A stretch of 64,000 nt of DNA from an uncultured Pseudomonadota bacterium (GTDB lineage: Bacteria; Pseudomonadota; Alphaproteobacteria; Rhodobacterales; Rhodobacteraceae). The notes below the pieces were generated by a model, which had not been told where the DNA came from, ran no database searches, and saw nothing but the letters and a program-made list of their open reading frames with translations. A program made the position numbers and the translations under genes. Every line of letters starts with the position of its first letter. The first letter of the stretch is position 1. The stretch covers positions 15,066 through 79,065 of the forward strand of contig CAVOYU010000004.1 in the NCBI GenBank assembly GCA_963700775.1, given 5' to 3'. This document shows positions 7,518-15,119 of this stretch, one piece after another.

Positions 7518-8537
7518 ATGCAAGCCGCGGGCGCGGATCGCGAGGCGTTCTCCGGGGGGAGCGATACGTTGAAGCCGATTGACTACGAGCGATTCTTCAT
7601 CGTCGGCGCGCCGCGTTGCGGCACGACCGCGATGTCGAAATACCTGAAGCACCATCCGTCGATCTCGTTCTCGTCTCCGAAGGAGACGAACTTTTTCCTG
7701 ACGGCGAACCCGAAGCTCGCGCCGGCGGCGCTCGCGGCGCAGTTCACCGACGCCTTCTTCGATCCGGTGGACGGCCGCACGACGACTCTCGGCGAGGGTT
7801 CGGTCTCGACGCTCTACTCGCGCGAGGCGATCGAGCGCGTCCTCGCCTGCTTCCCGCAGGCAAGGCTGATCGTGATGCTGCGCAACCCGGTGAACCTGCT
7901 GCATTCGTATCATGCCCGGCTGATCTACATGCGCCAGGAGACCGAAACCGATTTTGCGGCGGCCTGGAACCTCCAGGACCAGCGCGCAGCCGGCCGCAGC
8001 GTTCCCCGGTCCTGCTTCGATCCACGCATGCTGCAATACCGCGAGGTGGGCAGGCTGGGCCACTACACCGCGCAGCTCTTCGACCTTGCCGGGCGCGACC
8101 GCTGCCTGCCGATTCTCTATCATGACCTCCGCGCCGACACCGGTGCGGTCTACCGGCAGGTCCTGGATTTCCTTGGCCTGCCGGATGACGGGCGGACCGA
8201 CTTCCGGGTCAAGAACAAGCAGCGGCAGTTCAAGAGCGCCTTCTGGCAGGATCTCTACAGCGGTACCCTGCTGGGGCCGGTGGGCCGGCTGCTGGCGAAG
8301 CAGCCGCGGCACTTGGCGCGGCTCTCACGGGTCACCCGCAACTTCCGCAAGGGCCTCAAGCGCAGCAATGCCAACGAGGTAACGTTGCCGCCGCTCGACC
8401 CGGACCTCGCTGCAATGTTGCGGACCTACTTCACCGAGGACATCCAGCGGCTTTCAAAGCTGCTGGAGCGCGACCTTTCGGACTGGCTCAAGGCCCCGGA
8501 ACCCGACCCGGCGGGCATGATCACGGCCGCGGCCTGA
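7518..8537 (+). CDS. Sulfotransferase family protein
   Basis: FIVGAPRCGTT (5'-PSB), KETNFF, LRNPV..SYH (3'-PB). Confidence 0.88.
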   Translation: MQAAGADREAFSGGSDTLKPIDYERFFIVGAPRCGTTAMSKYLKHHPSISFSSPKETNFFLTANPKLAPAALAAQFTDAFFDPVDGRTTTLGEGSVSTLYSREAIERVLACFPQARLIVMLRNPVNLLHSYHARLIYMRQETETDFAAAWNLQDQRAAGRSVPRSCFDPRMLQYREVGRLGHYTAQLFDLAGRDRCLPILYHDLRADTGAVYRQVLDFLGLPDDGRTDFRVKNKQRQFKSAFWQDLYSGTLLGPVGRLLAKQPRHLARLSRVTRNFRKGLKRSNANEVTLPPLDPDLAAMLRTYFTEDIQRLSKLLERDLSDWLKAPEPDPAGMITAAA

Positions 8538-8547
8538 GCCACGGCAT

Positions 8548-9621
8548 TCACGCCGGCCGGATCGTTCCGTCCGGCTGGCGGATGCCGCCGCGCACCGCGC
8601 CGGCGGCGGTGTCGCCGAACAGCACCGAATGGCTCGCGGGCAGCGGGCGGGAATTCGCCATCGAGATCCAGACCCGGTAGAGCAGACGGTGGCCGGCGCC
8701 CTCGGGCCCGTCCTCGTAGGCGGTGCGGCCGTGGTAGAGGATGTGGTTGTTCAGGTACTGGATGTCGCCCGGCTGGAAGCGGTGGGTGATGCCGAGTTCG
8801 TGGCCGAGGGCGGCCAACATGTCGAGCGCCTCCCACTGCCTCTCGGACATGCGCGGAACGTGGTCCACCTTCTGGCCGGCCTCGACATAGGTGCGCGAGT
8901 AGTGGGTGGTGAAATGCCCATTCTCGAGGGCGAAGACCGGCAGCATGTAGTAGGCCGCCTCGCCGCCCTTTTCTTCCCCGAGGCGCGAGCGGGGGATGTC
9001 GCCGTAGAGCTCCTCCAACAGGTCCGGGCGACGTGCCAGCATGGCGTCGTGGATGGCGACGGCGCTGGCGACCTCGGAGAGCCCGCCGGCGCGGGCCTGG
9101 TCGACGCAAAGCAGCGCCACCACGTCGGTGCGGTCGGTATGCCAGCGCAGCGCGCCGGTGGTCTGCACCCGGGCGCGGGATGACAGGAACACGTCCTTGC
9201 CCTGCCCGTCCTTCAGCGTGCCGCGATTGCGCGCGGCGGCGCCTTCGTCGGTGATCTCGCCGATCAGCTCGCCGGCGGCGGACTGGTACACCGGCGTGCC
9301 GAGATGGCAGGCGAGGCCGAAATGGATCGCCTTGAGCTGGTCGTGGCTGTAGCGCTCGACCGGCAGCCCGCGCAGCAGCACGATGCCGCGACCGTTCTCG
9401 AGCTCGTCGGCGATCTGGGCGAGGTCGTCGGCGCAGGCGCCGAGCGGGAAGTCGTCGCGGGTGATCCGGTGCCAGGGCAGGTTGCGGCCGCGGACATGCT
9501 CGAGCGCGCCGTCGAGGGCGGCCACCGCGCGTTCGTCGATGCGCCGGGTCCAGCTCGAGTCCCGCTCCATCTCCGCGCCGGTCCAGGCCGCGGGGCCGCC
9601 GATGGGCATGCGTGCGGTCAT
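8548..9621 (-). CDS. TauD/TfdA family Fe(II)/2-oxoglutarate dioxygenase
   Basis: HxD (WHTD), GDIQYLNNH.LYHGRT; start MTARMP at 9621. Confidence 0.85.
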   Translation of the reverse strand: MTARMPIGGPAAWTGAEMERDSSWTRRIDERAVAALDGALEHVRGRNLPWHRITRDDFPLGACADDLAQIADELENGRGIVLLRGLPVERYSHDQLKAIHFGLACHLGTPVYQSAAGELIGEITDEGAAARNRGTLKDGQGKDVFLSSRARVQTTGALRWHTDRTDVVALLCVDQARAGGLSEVASAVAIHDAMLARRPDLLEELYGDIPRSRLGEEKGGEAAYYMLPVFALENGHFTTHYSRTYVEAGQKVDHVPRMSERQWEALDMLAALGHELGITHRFQPGDIQYLNNHILYHGRTAYEDGPEGAGHRLLYRVWISMANSRPLPASHSVLFGDTAAGAVRGGIRQPDGTIRPA

Positions 9622-9632
9622 TCCGGCAGTCC

Positions 9633-10769
9633 CTACCCCACCACCATCTCCAGCGGCATCCGGCTGAGGCGCTCGGCGCCTCGCTCGGTCACCAGCGAGG
9701 TGCGGCCCAGCGTCATGGCGGTGCCGGTATCGGAATCCATCAGGATCATGTGCAGGAAGAAAACCATGCCCGGCTCCATCGCCGTGGGTGCGCCCTCGTA
9801 GAACATCTGATCCTCCATCCAGGAGGGCGAGAAGCGGGGACCGAGCGAGTAACCGCAGGCGTTGAGCCGGTGGGCGCCCATGCCCGCCTCGTCGAGCACC
9901 CGCGCATGGGCGGCGAAGACGTCCGCCATGGGTCGGCCGGGCTTCAGCGCGCCCTCGCAGGCGGCGAGCGCCGCTTGCGCCGCGGACTGCATCTGCCGGT
10001 GCTGCGGGCGCGGATCGCCAATGACGATCGTCTTCATGTTGGCGGCATGGTAGTGGCGGTAGGTCCCCGCCCATTCCAGCGTGAGCTGGTCGTTCGCATC
10101 CAGCCTCCGCCGCCCGGACTGGTAGCGGCAGAGCAGCGCGTGCTGGCCCGAGCCGATGATGAACTCGTTGCCCGGATAGTCGCCGCCGGCGGAGAAGATC
10201 GCGTCGTGCATGGCGCCGAGGATCGCGCCCTCGTCAGCCCCGGCATGGGCGCGGGCGGCGGCGGCATCCCAGGCGAGGTCGGAAAGCTCGGCGGCCTTGC
10301 GGACATAGGCGATCTCGGCCGGGGACTTCACCAGCCGCAGGAGGCCCATCAGGTCCGAGGCCTCGACCAGCGCCGGCAGCCTCGCCGCCAGCCGGGCGCC
10401 GTGGTGGTGGACCAGTCCCTGCGTCCGGGTCTCCCAGCCGATGCGCTTGCCGGCGAGGCCGAGACCGGAGAGCAGCGCCACGAGGTCTTCGGTCGGATCG
10501 GCCCCGGCCCGATCCTTCCAGATCCGGATGTCCCGGATGTTCGAGGTGAGCTGCGCCTGGCGCAGGTCGGCCGAGCGGGTCAGCAGCACCGGATCGCGGT
10601 CGCTGACCACCAGGCACTGGAAGAAGCAGTAGCCGAAGGTGTCGTAGCCGGTCAGCCAGAACTGGCTCTCGGGCGCGAACAGCAGCATCACGTCGAGCCC
10701 CCGACGGCCCATTTCGGCACGGGTGCGCGCCATGCGGCCGGAGAACTCCTCGGCGGTGAAGTGAAGCAT
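9633..10769 (-). CDS. M24 family (Xaa-Pro peptidase/creatinase-like) hydrolase
   Basis: WLTGYD, RLVKSPAEI, GYSLG, PGMVFFLH; creatinase-N plus pita-bread architecture. Confidence 0.85.
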   Translation of the reverse strand: MLHFTAEEFSGRMARTRAEMGRRGLDVMLLFAPESQFWLTGYDTFGYCFFQCLVVSDRDPVLLTRSADLRQAQLTSNIRDIRIWKDRAGADPTEDLVALLSGLGLAGKRIGWETRTQGLVHHHGARLAARLPALVEASDLMGLLRLVKSPAEIAYVRKAAELSDLAWDAAAARAHAGADEGAILGAMHDAIFSAGGDYPGNEFIIGSGQHALLCRYQSGRRRLDANDQLTLEWAGTYRHYHAANMKTIVIGDPRPQHRQMQSAAQAALAACEGALKPGRPMADVFAAHARVLDEAGMGAHRLNACGYSLGPRFSPSWMEDQMFYEGAPTAMEPGMVFFLHMILMDSDTGTAMTLGRTSLVTERGAERLSRMPLEMVVG

Positions 10770-11180
10770 GGGTCCCCTTTGCGAAGCGCGTGTCGAAGCG
10801 GCGTGTCAAAGCGTCATGCGACACAGGAACCGTTTCCGGACCCGCAGTCAACGGCGCCGCGGGCCGGGGAAATCCGCAAGTTCGCAGAGGCAGGGTCGCG
10901 TTCCCGAGGCGCGCAACCGATGCATCAAGCGGCTCTGGCCCGGCGGGGCGACAGGTCCAGCCAGCGGACAGAACTATGGGAAACCGTCAGGCAGGACGGG
11001 CCGGCGGGCTAGGTTCAGGCGCCACAGGCATCGTGGCGCGCTACGAGCCGCACACCGTACCGCCGGTGGAAGGACAAAGGAACTATGAAATGACTGGCGA
11101 CCGATCTCAATTCAGACCGGTCGCCCCCTCTTCGATACAGGCGTAGGTTCTCCGTGGAAGAAAATCCGCCAGAGACGGGC

Positions 11181-11429
11181 TTAGGTGTTGTTGCCCGGTG
11201 TGCCCGGTCCGGTCCCGACTCCGTCGTTTACCGGCGGATTCCCGGGGGGCTGGCCGTCGATGCCGTTGCCGACACCGTTGTTGCCCTTCGGCCCGCCGCC
11301 CGTCGATCTGGCGATCGCCGGAGAGCTGAGCGACGTCGACAGCAGCACTGTCATCGCCGGCGGCACGGTGAGGGCGAACCGCCCACTGGATTTGAGGAAG
11401 TCACGTCTATCACGATCTGGGCTTGACAT
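11181..11429 (-). CDS. Small putative precursor peptide A (82 aa): Tat-like leader plus Gly/Asn/Pro-rich core
   Basis: GGGAG RBS; RRDFLK...AIA leader identical over 35 aa to 14000..14227. Confidence 0.85.
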   Translation of the reverse strand: MSSPDRDRRDFLKSSGRFALTVPPAMTVLLSTSLSSPAIARSTGGGPKGNNGVGNGIDGQPPGNPPVNDGVGTGPGTPGNNT

Positions 11430-11471
11430 ACTGGAACACTCCCAATTGAGCCACTTTTCTAGAAGCTTGGA

Positions 11472-11518
11472 AGATTAGCCTTTTTTTGGCCAAAATGCAA
11501 TGCGCTCCGGTTGAGCGA
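11472..11518 (-). promoter_or_regulatory. Putative sigma70 promoter (TTGCAT-N17-TAATCT) with upstream TCGCTCAACCG box for peptide A
   Basis: Same box and similar -35/-10 layout recur upstream of peptide B at matching distance. Confidence 0.55.
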
Positions 11519-11710
11519 CCCTCAGCATGCTCTACTTGGGGTTGTACGGCGGGTTGTACGGCCGCAGGGCCTGATTGCGGGCGGCGCCCCGGGGAACGGT
11601 GCGGAAAGCCACCCTCAAGACCCGGCGGGCGATGCGCCGGACAGACGGCTTCACGGTCTTTCGGGGGCGGTCGAGCCAGGCCGCAACGACAGCGATGCGC
11701 CGCGGTGCAT

Positions 11711-12781
11711 TCAGAGCTTTCCCATCCTTGTGGAGTCGAAGAAGGTCCTGATCCTGCTACGGATTCTGGCGATCAGGTCATGGCGCCCGCTGTGCAGGGC
11801 TTCGTGCCAGATCCGCCTGATCAGCTTCAGGGGCGGGATTGGCGGGTCCAGCAACGCGGACACCGCGGTTCCGGGCAGCGTGATTCCGGGCCATCTCGCC
11901 TGCAGCAGCCTGCGCCGGAACTGGATGTCGGCCCGCCAACCGCGGCGCAGCTCCCGGGGCACGGGGAGGTCGAGCAGGCCGTGAAGCGTGCGGCAGTATG
12001 TGCGCAGTGCAGATTTCGGAACGCCGGCCGGAAAGAGGGAGTCGAGCAGCGGCCAGTCGACACCTTCCGGGGATTCGATCAGGGTCGCGGCATCGAACAG
12101 ATGACGGATGTCGACATGGCCGCGCCAGTAGTCGCGGTCCCGCAACTGGTCGTGGGCGACGAGAACCGCCAGCTGCATGGTCGGTGACGGGAGCCACGCG
12201 CTGCCATCGCCGAGCTCCACCAGTTTGGCGCCCCTTTGCAGGGTATCGAAATCGAATTGCAGAGGGACGGAATAGAACTGGTCGTGCAGGTCGATCGACC
12301 CTGCGTCCTTCGAGCGGGAGAGCGCCGCTGCGGACGGAGCCAGCCCCGCCTCCTGATCGCGCACATACCCGATCGCCTGCAAAGCGGCGAACGCATCGGG
12401 AAGCTCGCGCGGGGGCACCAGCAGGTCGATGTCCGCGAGGATGCGGCCAGCGTGGCGCCGATTTCCCGGGGCGCCGAGGATCGCCGCGCCCTTGATCAGC
12501 AGGGGCCGCACGCCGGCCCGGTTGAGCTGCCCGGCGGCCTCGCACAGTTGCGTCATCATCAGGGTGTTTCGCTCGGCCGCGCTATCGAGTACCGCCTGAA
12601 GGAATTCCTGAACGTCATCCGGAAGCGACGGGAATGCCCCGCTCTGCCTCAGGCGCTCCGCCATGGTGGCCGTGACGAGGCTGTTGTTGGCGGCAGCCAT
12701 GATCTCCATCCAGTCGGCTTCCGCAGGCGGCTTGCCGGAGACGGCGGCCACAAGGGTCCGGAGGATCGATGGGTCACGCAT
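11711..12781 (-). CDS. Nucleotidyltransferase family protein (NTP_transf_5-like)
   Basis: LLIKGAA...GRILADIDLLV signature, IDLH; start overlaps the kinase stop. Confidence 0.85.
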   Translation of the reverse strand: MRDPSILRTLVAAVSGKPPAEADWMEIMAAANNSLVTATMAERLRQSGAFPSLPDDVQEFLQAVLDSAAERNTLMMTQLCEAAGQLNRAGVRPLLIKGAAILGAPGNRRHAGRILADIDLLVPPRELPDAFAALQAIGYVRDQEAGLAPSAAALSRSKDAGSIDLHDQFYSVPLQFDFDTLQRGAKLVELGDGSAWLPSPTMQLAVLVAHDQLRDRDYWRGHVDIRHLFDAATLIESPEGVDWPLLDSLFPAGVPKSALRTYCRTLHGLLDLPVPRELRRGWRADIQFRRRLLQARWPGITLPGTAVSALLDPPIPPLKLIRRIWHEALHSGRHDLIARIRSRIRTFFDSTRMGKL

Positions 12782-13907
12782 GGTCGGTCAGTTCTCGCAG
12801 CAATCGCACGGCGTCCGAAAGATCCGAGTAATGCAGGTCCCGGCATTCGGCGTTCGCAACGAGGTCCGTGATCGCGTGCATGCATTCGACGGAGGCTTGC
12901 CCCGACGGGGCGAACCCCTCGCTCATCAGCGCGGAAAGCGTTTCGCGAGCGTCGAGCGGGACGAGCCCCGGCGCCTGTCGGTCACGTTTCACCCGGACGA
13001 TCCATCGCACCGCGACCTCGGTGTCGCAGATGTCTTGCGGGGGAGGGATGAAACGGACGCGCTGATCATCGAGCCTCTCGAGAATTGGCAGGTCCCGCAG
13101 ATCATAACCGATCCGCTCGAGTATTGGCCAGGAACCTTGCTTCGCCGTCGGCGCGAACTGAACGCCTCGGACACGGCCGCCAGGCAGGAGCAGGGAGACG
13201 TCGTCCGCCGCATAGCGGAATCCGGCGGCCATCAGGCCGAGTGTGAGAGTGGACTTGCCCGCGCCCGGCGGACCGACCAGCAGCAGGCCGCCGCCGCGGA
13301 CAAGGCAGGCGACGTGGAGCGCCGCGAGGCAATCCGCCGCCTCGATCACCTGCTGGAACAGCAGGGCCTTGAGGGCGGGGCCGGCCTGATCGCGGGTGAC
13401 GACGGCGGCCGGCGCGAAGTCGGGGCCGACCACCACCATGCCGCCGCCCGCCTCGGCTACCAGACAGGCTTCGCCCTGCCCCGCCGCAGCGGTCTCCAGA
13501 TGCCGGAAGATCGGAGCGATCAGGCCGCGAAGATCGGCGTTCGCGTAGCCGATGTCGAAACGGACGCCACCGGCCTCGATGGAGTGAAGGTCATCGCGGC
13601 AAGTGTCCGACGGGATCTCCGCGCGGATCAGGCCGCGCCGGGACCAGTCGGCGAGGACCTTCATGGCCCACTCCGAAGCCTCCTCGACGCTGCTACCGGT
13701 GGACGCCAGGTCCTCCACGATACCGTCCAGCGTCGTCCCCCGCTGGACATGGCGCGCGAAGAACGCGGCGGCCGCATCGAGCTCGAAGAGCTGCTGCTCG
13801 GCCGCGCTGAAGAGGATTTCGCTCTCGCCAAGGGAAAGGAGGGTCGCCTGTCCCGAAAACCGGTAGACGATCCTGCCCGATGACTGGCAAGGGGACCGGG
13901 GTGCCAA
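12774..13907 (-). CDS. PqqD/RRE-like domain fused to HPr-kinase-related P-loop kinase
   Basis: N-terminal QQLFELDAAAAFF...LADWSRRGLI (PqqD-like); ALHVAC, Walker A GPPGAGKST, YAADD; GAGGAG RBS before TTG 13907. Confidence 0.8.
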   Translation of the reverse strand: MAPRSPCQSSGRIVYRFSGQATLLSLGESEILFSAAEQQLFELDAAAAFFARHVQRGTTLDGIVEDLASTGSSVEEASEWAMKVLADWSRRGLIRAEIPSDTCRDDLHSIEAGGVRFDIGYANADLRGLIAPIFRHLETAAAGQGEACLVAEAGGGMVVVGPDFAPAAVVTRDQAGPALKALLFQQVIEAADCLAALHVACLVRGGGLLLVGPPGAGKSTLTLGLMAAGFRYAADDVSLLLPGGRVRGVQFAPTAKQGSWPILERIGYDLRDLPILERLDDQRVRFIPPPQDICDTEVAVRWIVRVKRDRQAPGLVPLDARETLSALMSEGFAPSGQASVECMHAITDLVANAECRDLHYSDLSDAVRLLRELTDHA

Positions 13908-13999
13908 GGCGTGTCTCCTCACGGACGACCGTTCTTCGAAGCGCGTGAGCCTCGTTGGCCCGGGTTTCCCGGTCCCCAATGCCGTCAGGCGGGGTCGAT

Positions 14000-14227
14000 T
14001 TACCGCTGGCGCCGGCGCTTGACGCGGCGCATCCGGATGCGCCGCCGCCGCGACTTGCCAACCGTAGTCGCGCCGGTGCCCCCGCTATGGGTCCCGCCAG
14101 ACGACCTGGCGATCGCCGGCGAGCTGAGCGACGTGGAGAGCAAGACGGTCATTGCGGGTGGGACGGTGAGGGCGAAGCGCCCGCTCGACTTCAGGAAGTC
14201 GCGTCTTTCATGGTTTGGGGCCGACAT
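14000..14227 (-). CDS. Small putative precursor peptide B (75 aa): Tat-like leader, Ser/Thr/Gly segment and Arg-rich tail
   Basis: AGGAG RBS; leader identical to peptide A. Confidence 0.85.
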   Translation of the reverse strand: MSAPNHERRDFLKSSGRFALTVPPAMTVLLSTSLSSPAIARSSGGTHSGGTGATTVGKSRRRRIRMRRVKRRRQR

Positions 14228-14243
14228 ACTCGTAGACTCCTAG

Positions 14244-15089
14244 GGTTGAGACTGATTCAGACCCAGAATGCGATGAGAGTAGCGAGCGCGACGGCGGAGA
14301 GGAAGTTGCGGGCGAGCTTGTCGTAACGGGTGGCAATGCGTCTGAAGTCCTTCAGTCGGCAGAATGCGGCCTCGATGCGCCATCGGCTGCGGTAGCGGAT
14401 CTTGTCATGCCGGATCGGCTTCTTCCGGTTGCAGCGGCCGGGGATGACGGTCAGCGTTCCGGTGGCTCTCAGGCGCTTGCGCAAGGTGTTGGCGTCATAT
14501 CCCTTGTCGGCGATGAGGCAGCGCACCGGACCTGCCGCATCCATCAGTTCGCCGGCCATGGTGACATCGGCGACGTTGCCCGGGGTGAGGCGGAGGATGG
14601 CCGGGCGGCCCAGAAGGTCGGTTACCGCATGGATTTTCGTGGTCTGGCCGCCGCGTGAGGGACCGATCGCCTGCGCCTTCGCCCCCCTTTACCGCCATGG
14701 GCGGAGCGATGGGCTTTCACATAGGTGGAGTTGATCGAGGCGGAGAGCGCAAGCACGCCTTTGGCGACCAGGGCATCGAGGATGTCAGTCCATATCCGGC
14801 GCCGGGACCAGCGGTTGAAGCGATTGTAGATGGTGGTCGGCGGGCCGTACCGGGCGGGGCAGTCCTTCCAGCGGCAGCCGGCCTTCAGCACATGCAGAAT
14901 GCCGCTGATCACCCGGCGGTCGTCCACCCGCCGCGCGCCCGGCTGGTTCTTCGGCAGATGCGGCTCGATCGCCGCCCATGCATCATCGCTTAACCAGAAT
15001 AGACCCCTCATCCCCGCCTCCGGCATGAAACTCGAAGGCAGAGAATCTGATTTGCTAAGCCAGTTCAAGCACCTGATTGGGTTCTGACC
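14244..15089 (-). mobile_element. IS5-family insertion sequence (~846 bp, IS427-like split transposase)
   Basis: CTAG direct repeats at 14240-14243 and 15090-15093; weak terminal IRs (GGTTGAGACTGATTCAG / GGTCAGAACCCAATCAG); two transposase ORFs. Confidence 0.9.
14257..15011 (-). CDS. IS5-family transposase in two frames joined at an AAAGGGGGG slippery site (~14682-14690); probably inactive
   Basis: FWLSDDAW..IEPHLP, TTIYNRFNRW, ADKGYD, RRIATRYDKLARNF; INST in place of the catalytic IDST. Confidence 0.85.
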
Positions 15090-15119
15090 CTAGGAAAGCT
15101 ACAACTGTAGACCACCTCA

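What the first reader, a model, noticed from the sequence alone, without database searches (positions are those of the whole stretch)
11181..14227. Candidate RiPP-like system: two twin-arginine-leader peptides flanking an RRE-kinase and a nucleotidyltransferase
Seen: four co-directional genes in the order peptide B (75 aa), PqqD-like + HPr-kinase-like P-loop protein (LH, GPPGAGKST, ADD), NTP_transf_5-type nucleotidyltransferase (KG..R..DIDL), peptide A (82 aa). The peptides share an identical leader but have unrelated Ser/Thr/Gly-containing cores. Established: PqqD-fold RREs bind RiPP leaders, and HPr-kinase-like enzymes plus nucleotidyltransferases tailor phosphorylated lasso peptides (paeninodin/pseudomycoidin-type clusters). 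Inference: there is no lasso cyclase, leader peptidase or transporter here, so this may be a minimal, distinct class. Leader-guided Ser/Thr phosphorylation followed by NMP (or sugar-phosphate) transfer would be the whole maturation, with Tat export and signal peptidase as the processing route.
Basis: partly seen in the sequence, partly recalled or inferred. Interest (0 to 1): 0.9.

Follow-up and report, generated by a model that had tools for sequence, protein, structure and literature searches.

The report
Signal-leader peptides with kinase and nucleotidyltransferase
Two small peptides with the same export-signal-like leader sit beside a peptide-binding kinase and a nucleotidyltransferase. 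This looks like an undescribed Gram-negative counterpart of the phosphorylated "LPP" peptides reported from Bacillota in 2026.

Summary
Four co-directional minus-strand genes lie at 11181-14227: peptide B, an RRE(PqqD)-HprK-like kinase fusion, an NTP_transf_5 nucleotidyltransferase, and peptide A.

- **Leader:** residues 8-42 of the two peptides are identical, with 17 synonymous and 0 non-synonymous codon differences.
- **Kinase N-terminus:** it superposes on the lasso RREs TfuB1 and TbiB1 (Z 12.7 and 12.6, rmsd 1.8 A). The rest is a PEPCK/HprK fold with the P-loop intact.
- **Conservation:** among 80 related loci, about 44 carry peptide + RRE + kinase + NTase and no other conserved gene. The RRE is fused in Alphaproteobacteria and separate in six other phyla.
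- **Unlinked cases:** nine of eleven genomes whose peptide is unlinked encode the kinase elsewhere.

The closest known system is the linear polyphosphorylated peptides (LPP) of Bacillota (Popov 2026). LPP has the same enzyme trio, a YxxPxVL leader motif and a Ser just after the cleavage site. This cassette lacks LPP's dedicated signal-peptidase-like protease and exporter, and its leader looks like a twin-arginine signal ending in AxA. I therefore call it a new variant of a known kind. Modification and export are inferred, not shown.

Peptide A's core is not variable. It is a roughly 35-residue Gly/Asn/Pro module conserved across phyla, and it also ends long secreted proteins. An IS5 element sits just upstream of peptide B.

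This scan has met the same cassette before on other DNA (at least 75 genomes).

The parts
14000..14227 (-). Peptide B precursor (75 aa). Leader is residues 1-40 (14108-14227), Ser42 codon is 14102-14104. The core is Gly/Ser/Thr-rich with an Arg-rich tail.
   Evidence: ORF. The leader HMM scores E 2.7e-23. A syntenic orthologue with a different basic core is in L011:7239-7469. Other same-leader, different-core peptides occur in L010, L033, L035, L048 and L092.
13620..13871 (-). RRE (PqqD-like winged-helix) domain, residues 13-96 of the 377-aa kinase protein.
   Evidence: AF2 model with pLDDT 92.1. VIA-align gives TfuB1 6jx3_B Z 12.7, rmsd 1.8 A over 84 aa, and TbiB1 5v1u_A Z 12.6. The profile of this domain plus stand-alone homologues hits TfuB1 at E 6.4e-13 and LppB (9x8z_B) at 3.1e-7. 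Pfam PqqD scores E 2.5e-4.
12774..13619 (-). HprK/PEPCK-fold P-loop kinase domain (residues 97-377 plus stop). Walker A GPPGAGKST lies at 13248-13274.
   Evidence: VIA-align gives PEPCK 1ii2_B Z 17.1 and HprK/P 1ko7_B Z 12.1, rmsd 2.3 A. H198, G215, G217, K218, D235 and K256 are invariant in 25 homologues. TIGR04352 scores E 2.7e-16.
11711..12781 (-). NTP_transf_5 (pol-beta-fold) nucleotidyltransferase, 356 aa. The DxD motif (D117, D119) lies at 12425-12433. The gene overlaps the kinase stop by 8 nt.
   Evidence: Pfam PF14907 scores E 5e-31. R113, D117, D119 and H166 are invariant in 22 homologues. AF2 pLDDT is 90.8. Foldseek hits are MenT1, LnuA, FKRP and ANT(2'').
11181..11429 (-). Peptide A precursor (82 aa). 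Leader is residues 1-40 (11310-11429), Ser42 codon is 11304-11306. The conserved Gly/Asn/Pro core module is residues 48-82 (11184-11288).
   Evidence: ORF. There are 478 homologous clusters. Alignments A1, A2 and A5 show RR, PP, AIA, S42 and most core positions invariant. 175 loci were found in species-representative genomes.
14240..15093 (-). IS5-family insertion directly upstream of peptive B's ribosome-binding site (transposase ORFs 14257-14559 and 14622-15068). It is not part of the system but probably affects its expression.
   Evidence: Pfam gives DDE_Tnp_1_2 and DUF4096. The syntenic Limibaculum-MAG locus L011 has 319 bp where the window has 1182 bp.

Best explanation
This is a leader-guided peptide modification cassette of the LPP type, adapted to Gram-negative bacteria.

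1. The N-terminal RRE domain of the kinase binds the shared leader of peptides A and B.
2. The attached HprK-like kinase phosphorylates, perhaps several times, the invariant Ser that lies two residues after the AxA site (Ser42).
3. The NTP_transf_5 enzyme then extends the phosphate. A glycosyl or phospho-alcohol group is more likely than a plain NMP.
4. The leader also has the form of a twin-arginine signal peptide (RRDFLK, a weakly hydrophobic stretch, AIA). Export by Tat and cleavage by the housekeeping signal peptidase would therefore replace the dedicated SipW-like protease and MsbA-like pump of Bacillota LPP clusters.

Shown here: gene content, folds, intact catalytic motifs, purifying selection on the leader, and conserved linkage. 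Inferred: every chemical step, the target residue, and the export route.
For: **RRE fold and homology.** Z 12.7 with rmsd 1.8 A to TfuB1. The profile scores E 6.4e-13 to TfuB1 and 3.1e-7 to LppB. In split-type loci the same domain is a separate roughly 90-aa protein that hits the lasso PqqD chaperone NF033530 at E 5e-13.

**Enzymes look active.**
- The kinase P-loop, His and Asp are invariant.
- The NTase R..DxD motif is invariant.

**Linkage.**
- 32 fused-type and about 12 split-type loci out of 80 have peptide, kinase and NTase together.
- Gene order differs between the two types, with the peptide lying between PqqD and the kinase in the split type.
- No other conserved neighbour was found.
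- 9 of 11 genomes with an unlinked short peptide encode the kinase elsewhere.
- In a sample of 401 Alphaproteobacteria, 12 had a full-length fused kinase.
- 18 of 19 further kinase loci have the NTase adjacent, and many have other RR-leader small ORFs with variable cores.

**Leader.**
- 17 synonymous and 0 non-synonymous changes over residues 8-42.
- R9 is invariant. R8, P23, A38 and A40 are at least 90% conserved in 36 diverse precursors, and a Ser lies 2-4 residues after AxA.
- Split-type leaders carry YxxPxVL with the AxA ending 15 residues after Tyr. The LPP leader has the same spacing from Tyr to its cleavage site, followed by the phosphorylated Ser3.

**Export machinery.** TatC is present in this genome.

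**Experimental precedent.** LppK polyphosphorylates core Ser3 and cleavage is by a signal-peptidase-I-type enzyme (PMC13381572). PsmN adds hexoses to phospho-Ser (PMC8498205).
Against: - There is no experimental datum for this family.
- The window's own leader lacks the aromatic residue of the [Y/W]xxP motif (it reads TVPPAM).
- Tat-signal HMMs match only 9 of 36 (NCBIfam) and 7 of 36 (Pfam) precursors, all weakly.
- Tat normally carries folded proteins, so a roughly 40-residue Gly/Pro-rich cargo would be unusual.
- Peptide A's core module also occurs on long Sec or lipoprotein-type proteins in genomes without the kinase. The module therefore does not need this modification to exist.
- LppN showed no activity in the LPP study.
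- The IS5 insertion may silence the operon in this strain.
Confidence: 0.6

Rival explanations
1. The enzymes modify the peptides as above, but the leader is only an RRE/kinase recognition leader. The RR..AxA pattern would serve enzyme recognition, and removal and export would use unlinked, unidentified proteins, or the product would stay inside the cell.
For: Tat HMM matches are weak. The hydrophobic stretch is Ser/Thr/Pro-rich and conserved well beyond what a signal peptide needs. RiPP leaders are normally not secretion signals.
Against: RR is invariant or nearly so, and KR is the only variant seen. FLK/FIK follows it, and AxA sits 20-30 residues later in every subtype across seven phyla. 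No protease or pump is conserved nearby. In LPP the leader protease is itself a signal-peptidase-I homologue (PMC13381572).
Confidence: 0.2
2. The peptides are ordinary small Tat-exported proteins. The RRE-kinase and NTase act on another substrate, such as a polysaccharide, a lipid or another protein, and the adjacency reflects co-regulation only.
For: The peptide A module exists without the enzymes in many genomes. Some peptide copies are unlinked from the enzymes.
Against: An RRE domain is a peptide-binding module. It is fused to the kinase here and encoded immediately beside the peptide gene in split loci. The leader, not the core, is what all linked peptides share.
Confidence: 0.1
3. The locus is the remnant of a phosphorylated lasso-peptide cluster, or its enzymes tailor the lasso peptide encoded elsewhere in this genome.
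For: HprK-like kinases and NTP_transf_5 enzymes were first known as lasso tailoring enzymes (PMC8498205). This genome has a lasso cluster on contig 2.
Against: None of about 44 related loci has a cyclase or B2 protease. The lasso cluster carries its own HprK-like kinase. The peptides have no lasso-like core.
Confidence: 0.05

Closest known systems
Linear polyphosphorylated peptide (LPP) clusters of Bacillota (Popov et al., Nat Commun 2026, PMC13381572)
   Same: Both have a linear precursor with a conserved N-terminal leader and variable C-terminus, and one to three precursor genes per cluster. Both combine an RRE, an HprK-like kinase and an uncharacterised NTP transferase, with no cyclase. Both show a leader motif of the YxxPxVL type (in split-type relatives here) followed about 15 residues later by a signal-peptidase-type cleavage site and a conserved Ser.
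   Different: This cassette has no archaeal-type signal peptidase I (LppS) and no MsbA-like exporter. The RRE is fused to the kinase in this window. The leader carries a twin-arginine motif and AxA. The cassette is found in Pseudomonadota and six other mostly Gram-negative phyla, whereas LPP was described as restricted to Bacillota. One core type is a strongly conserved module.
Phosphorylated and phosphoglycosylated lasso peptides (paeninodin PadeK; pseudomycoidin PsmK/PsmN; PMC8498205)
   Same: Both pair an HprK-like Ser kinase with an NTP_transf_5-type enzyme, and both use an RRE of the lasso B1 type.
   Different: There is no macrolactam synthetase or B2 protease at this locus. The likely target Ser is near the N-terminus of the core, not at the C-terminus.
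NCBIfam 'HPr-rel-A system' (TIGR04352 HprK-related kinase A, TIGR04353 PqqD family chaperone)
   Same: It is the best-scoring curated family for the kinase, and it shares the PqqD + kinase pairing.
   Different: Scores are far below the cut-offs (59.5 against 200 bits; relatives score 53-81 bits). No substrate peptide is defined for that system.

Membership tests
LPP (linear polyphosphorylated peptide) clusters | HprK-like kinase encoded with the precursor | tested here: met
   Fold match to HprK/P at Z 12.1 and PEPCK at Z 17.1. The P-loop, His and Asp are invariant.
LPP (linear polyphosphorylated peptide) clusters | RRE of the lasso B1/LppB type | tested here: met
   TfuB1 Z 12.7, rmsd 1.8 A. 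Profile hit to LppB 9x8z_B at E 3.1e-7. The domain is fused here and discrete in split-type relatives.
LPP (linear polyphosphorylated peptide) clusters | Uncharacterised NTP transferase in the cluster | tested here: met
   PF14907 at E 5e-31, adjacent in nearly all related loci. I did not check that LppN belongs to the same Pfam family.
LPP (linear polyphosphorylated peptide) clusters | Archaeal-type signal peptidase I (SipW-like LppS) as leader peptidase; the family was defined through it | tested here: not met
   There is no TIGR02228 match in the window's genome, which is 87.8% complete. No such gene is among the conserved neighbours of 42 loci.
LPP (linear polyphosphorylated peptide) clusters | MsbA-like export pump in the cluster | tested here: not met
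   The window's neighbours are an IS5 element, a laccase-domain protein, a methyltransferase, Lgt, an M24 peptidase, a TauD-like protein and a sulfotransferase. No transporter is conserved across loci.
LPP (linear polyphosphorylated peptide) clusters | [Y/W]xxPx[LVI] RRE-binding motif in the leader | tested here: inconclusive
   The motif is present as YxxPxVL or WxxPxVL in split-type relatives. The window's own leader has xxxPPAM without the aromatic residue.
LPP (linear polyphosphorylated peptide) clusters | Polyphosphorylation of a Ser close to the start of the core | not testable with these tools
   A Ser 2-4 residues after AxA is conserved, but there are no mass data.
HPr-rel-A system (TIGR04352/TIGR04353) | Score above the curated cut-off of the equivalog models | tested here: not met
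   59.5 bits against 200 for the window's kinase. Stand-alone PqqD relatives score 20-29 bits against 35.
Lasso peptide cluster | Asn-synthetase-like cyclase and transglutaminase-like B2 protease next to the precursor | tested here: not met
   Neither is present in the window locus or in related loci. Both are present elsewhere in the genome on contig 2.
Twin-arginine (Tat) signal peptides | S/T-R-R-x-F-L-K motif, moderately hydrophobic stretch, AxA cleavage site | tested here: inconclusive
   The motif, stretch and AxA are present and conserved, and TatC is in the genome. However, TIGR01409 and PF10518 match only 9 and 7 of 36 precursors, with best E values of 4.5e-4 and 3.2e-3. Export itself is untested.

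The most novel reading that the evidence does not exclude
The leader is a working Tat signal peptide whose hydrophobic stretch also holds the RRE-binding motif. One sequence would then recruit the modifying enzymes in the cytoplasm and afterwards hand the phospho-modified peptide to the general Tat and signal-peptidase machinery. That would be a RiPP-type pathway with no dedicated protease or pump. The exported product would be a phylum-spanning Gly/Asn/Pro module carrying a phospho-linked group at its N-terminus, perhaps a handle for attachment to envelope or exopolysaccharide material.
Probability: 0.35. Interest if true: 0.8.

Novelty: new variant of a known kind. Interest (0 to 1): 0.62.

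Why it matters
LPPs were described in 2026 as confined to Bacillota and defined by a special leader peptidase. This cassette suggests the same chemistry is widespread in Gram-negative phyla and uses a general secretion signal as the RiPP leader. That would be a new solution to leader removal and export.

It also gives a likely substrate to a large set of 'orphan' PqqD/HprK-like/NTP_transf_5 cassettes. It offers simple two- or three-gene systems in which the unknown reaction of the NTP_transf_5 enzyme could finally be determined. The conserved 35-residue module is a separate open question.

Tried and rejected
- **Complex prediction.** The full kinase with peptide A residues 1-48 gave no verdict (ipSAE 0.01 and 0.03, mark 0.32). 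I do not use it as evidence either way.
- **Homology search for the kinase.** The word-based search was swamped by P-loop words and returned only 20 hits. I rebuilt the family from loci instead.
- **First leader regex.** It was too strict and found 6 hits. I replaced it with a leader HMM.
- **Foldseek on the whole kinase model.** It listed only PEPCK and HprK. The RRE domain appeared only with VIA-align.
- **Literature searches.** Searches for 'HprK-related kinase' and PF14907 found nothing relevant.
- **Other conserved neighbours.** The three next-largest clusters around the cassette were antisense shadow ORFs of the real genes, so I discarded them.
- **Promoter and terminator scan.** It was not above chance.
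- **Rejected reading.** I rejected the idea that the nearby sulfotransferase, TauD-like enzyme and M24 peptidase belong to the system. Only the M24 gene is syntenic in L011, and none recurs in other loci.
Full report
**What is there.** All four genes lie on the minus strand.
- Peptide B: 14000-14227.
- A 377-aa protein: 12774-13907. A longer TTG-started ORF reaches 13979, but the gene called in public data is the 377-aa form.
- A 356-aa protein: 11711-12781. It overlaps the previous stop by 8 nt.
- Peptide A: 11181-11429.

Pfam places the third gene firmly in NTP_transf_5 (E 5e-31). For the second gene it gives only sub-threshold PqqD and Hpr_kinase_C matches. NCBIfam's best model is HprK-related kinase A at 59.5 bits against a cut-off of 200.

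The two peptides are identical from residue 8 to 42, yet 17 of those codons differ, all synonymously. Both are therefore real genes, and the leader is under strong protein-level selection.

**Folds.** An AlphaFold model of the kinase, built on 25 homologues, has pLDDT 92.
- Residues 13-96 superpose on the lasso-peptide recognition elements TfuB1 and TbiB1 with Z 12.7 and 12.6 at 1.8 A over the whole domain. A long list of other RiPP recognition elements follows.
- Residues 97-377 match PEPCK (Z 17.1), and residues 193-377 match HprK/P (Z 12.1).
- A sequence profile of the N-terminal domain hits TfuB1 (6.4e-13), TbiB1, PqqD, and the two chaperones solved in the LPP study, PbaB1 and LppB (1e-7 and 3e-7).
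- The Walker A Gly and Lys, a His and an Asp are invariant in the family.

The NTase model (pLDDT 90.8) has a pol-beta-type core. Its nearest solved folds are MenT1, LnuA, FKRP and ANT(2''), all weak matches. R113, D117, D119 and H166 are invariant.

**Relatives and linkage.** Peptide A has 478 homologous clusters and 175 loci in species-representative genomes, of which I examined 80. Three contexts appear.

1. *Fused type*, about 32 loci. These are mostly Sphingomonadales and Caulobacterales, plus the closest relative (a Limibaculum MAG, L011) and one Myxococcota MAG. The order is peptide, RRE-kinase fusion, NTase.
2. *Split type*, about 12 loci. By record titles these come from Gammaproteobacteria, Acidobacteriota, Bacteroidota, Actinomycetota, Chloroflexota and Binatia. 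A stand-alone 90-aa PqqD protein, the peptide, and a 280-aa kinase run in one direction, with the NTase beside them. The stand-alone protein hits curated lasso PqqD chaperone models at E 5e-13.
3. *No enzymes within 10 kb.* This group includes short peptides in Bradyrhizobium, Microvirga, Phenylobacterium and some others. Nine of eleven such genomes encode the kinase elsewhere, at E values of 1e-28 to 1e-97.

De novo clustering of all neighbours found nothing else conserved with the cassette: no protease, no pump, no cyclase.

I also sampled 401 Alphaproteobacteria. Twelve carried a full-length fused kinase, and five of those had a peptide A homologue on the same contig. For 19 further kinase loci that I fetched, 18 had the NTase adjacent. 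Many had small ORFs with the same kind of leader but quite different short cores, including three in tandem in L103. Peptide B belongs to this second, variable class. Its orthologue in L011 keeps the leader but has a different basic core.

**The leader.** In 36 diverse precursors, R9 is invariant. R8, P23, A38 and A40 are at least 90% conserved, and a Ser follows the AxA within two to four residues. The pattern is that of a twin-arginine signal: RRxF[LI]K, a weakly hydrophobic stretch, then AxA. Tat-signal HMMs are the most frequent match but hit only 9 of 36 (NCBIfam) and 7 of 36 (Pfam) precursors, weakly. TatC is present in this genome.

Split-type leaders contain YxxPxVL, or WxxPxVL in one case. 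The AxA ends 15 residues after the Tyr.

**Comparison with what is known.** Popov et al. (Nat Commun 2026, PMC13381572) described LPPs in Bacillota. The cluster has these parts:
- precursors with a YxxPxVLxHQxIxFETxxS leader and variable C-termini;
- a discrete RRE;
- the HprK-like kinase LppK;
- an NTP transferase;
- a SipW-like signal peptidase that cuts after the Thr, 15 residues after the Tyr;
- an MsbA-like pump.

LppK puts several phosphates on core Ser3. The NTase had no detectable activity. The authors call LPPs restricted to Bacillota and do not mention Proteobacteria or Tat. In pseudomycoidin the homologous NTase adds hexoses to phospho-Ser (PMC8498205).

The present cassette shares the enzyme trio, the leader logic and the motif-to-cleavage-site-to-Ser spacing. 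It lacks the protease that defines LPP: there is no TIGR02228 match in this 87.8%-complete genome. It also lacks the pump. I therefore say it works like LPP but is not a member in the strict sense, and I class it as a new variant of a known kind.

**Most likely mechanism (inferred).** The RRE holds the leader. The kinase phosphorylates Ser42. The NTase extends the phosphate. Tat and the housekeeping signal peptidase then export the peptide and cut it after AIA. The main doubts are listed under evidence against. The complex prediction gave no verdict and is not used.

**Peptide A's core.** This is new relative to earlier notes of this scan. The core is not variable. It is a module of about 35 residues, consensus KGNNGVGNGxDPQPPGNPPxNDGPGTxPGNPGN, kept at 80-90% identity across phyla. 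The same module ends, or is repeated within, long secreted or lipoprotein-type proteins of Planctomycetota, Verrucomicrobiota, Myxococcota, Chloroflexota and cable bacteria. Some of these proteins carry EF-hand or HYR/Ig-like repeats. Of four such genomes tested, two had no kinase match, one had only a weak one and one had a split-type kinase. No Pfam family covers the module, and its function is unknown.

**State of the locus in this strain.** An IS5-family element of about 860 bp lies immediately upstream of peptide B and is absent from the syntenic L011 locus. The peptide B-kinase-NTase operon may therefore be cut off from its promoter, while peptide A stands apart downstream.

**Earlier notes of this scan.** After I had reached this reading, a look-up showed the same cassette had been noted in at least 75 other genomes. 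Follow-up agents reached the same conclusion, some also citing the LPP paper. Those notes agree with mine but are not independent evidence.

Noticed in passing
L047:2641-3870, L050:5155-5883, L053:9128-10144, L065:164-2941, L067:9530-10123, L074:4271-4702, L084:9365-10117, L087:9155-10114, L090:8198-10120: The roughly 35-residue Gly/Asn/Pro module of peptide A also forms the C-terminal end, or internal repeats, of long secreted or lipoprotein-type proteins in Planctomycetota, Verrucomicrobiota, Myxococcota, Chloroflexota and cable bacteria. Some of these carry EF-hand or HYR/Ig-like repeats. No Pfam family covers the module.
   Followed up: partly
L071:10130-11662, L047:4045-7207, L074:133-2484, L089:4204-6396: In four of the long-module-protein loci the neighbouring gene is a Hanks-type Ser/Thr protein kinase with TPR, PA14, GYF or PD40 domains. 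This may be chance in these kinase-rich phyla.
   Followed up: no
L124:6119-9615 (own genome, contig 2, 362-366 kb): The same genome carries a lasso-peptide cluster: a transglutaminase-like B2 protease, a GATase/Asn-synthetase-like cyclase, and its own HprK-like kinase. A lasso system and an LPP-like system therefore coexist here, as reported for Bacillota.
   Followed up: partly
L099:8398-9654 (own genome, contig 6): A third HprK-like kinase has the PqqD domain at its C-terminus, the reverse of the order in the window protein. It lies among LysM-domain proteins. I looked for neither a substrate nor an NTase there.
   Followed up: no
window 14240-15093: An IS5-family element with a two-ORF transposase is inserted just upstream of peptide B. 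It is absent from the syntenic locus L011.
   Followed up: yes
window 7518-10769: A sulfotransferase, a TauD-like dioxygenase and an M24 (prolidase/creatinase-type) peptidase lie downstream of peptide A. Only the M24 gene is syntenic in L011, and none recurs in other loci, so they are probably unrelated to the cassette.
   Followed up: partly
L103:7732-8550; G267:C182:17878-20407: One alphaproteobacterial locus has three tandem precursor genes with the same leader and different short cores. Another genome has two fused RRE-kinase genes in tandem next to the peptide.
   Followed up: no
window 11166-11178: A terminator-like hairpin followed by a T-run lies directly after the peptide A stop codon. 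The overall count of such sites in the region is not above chance.
   Followed up: no
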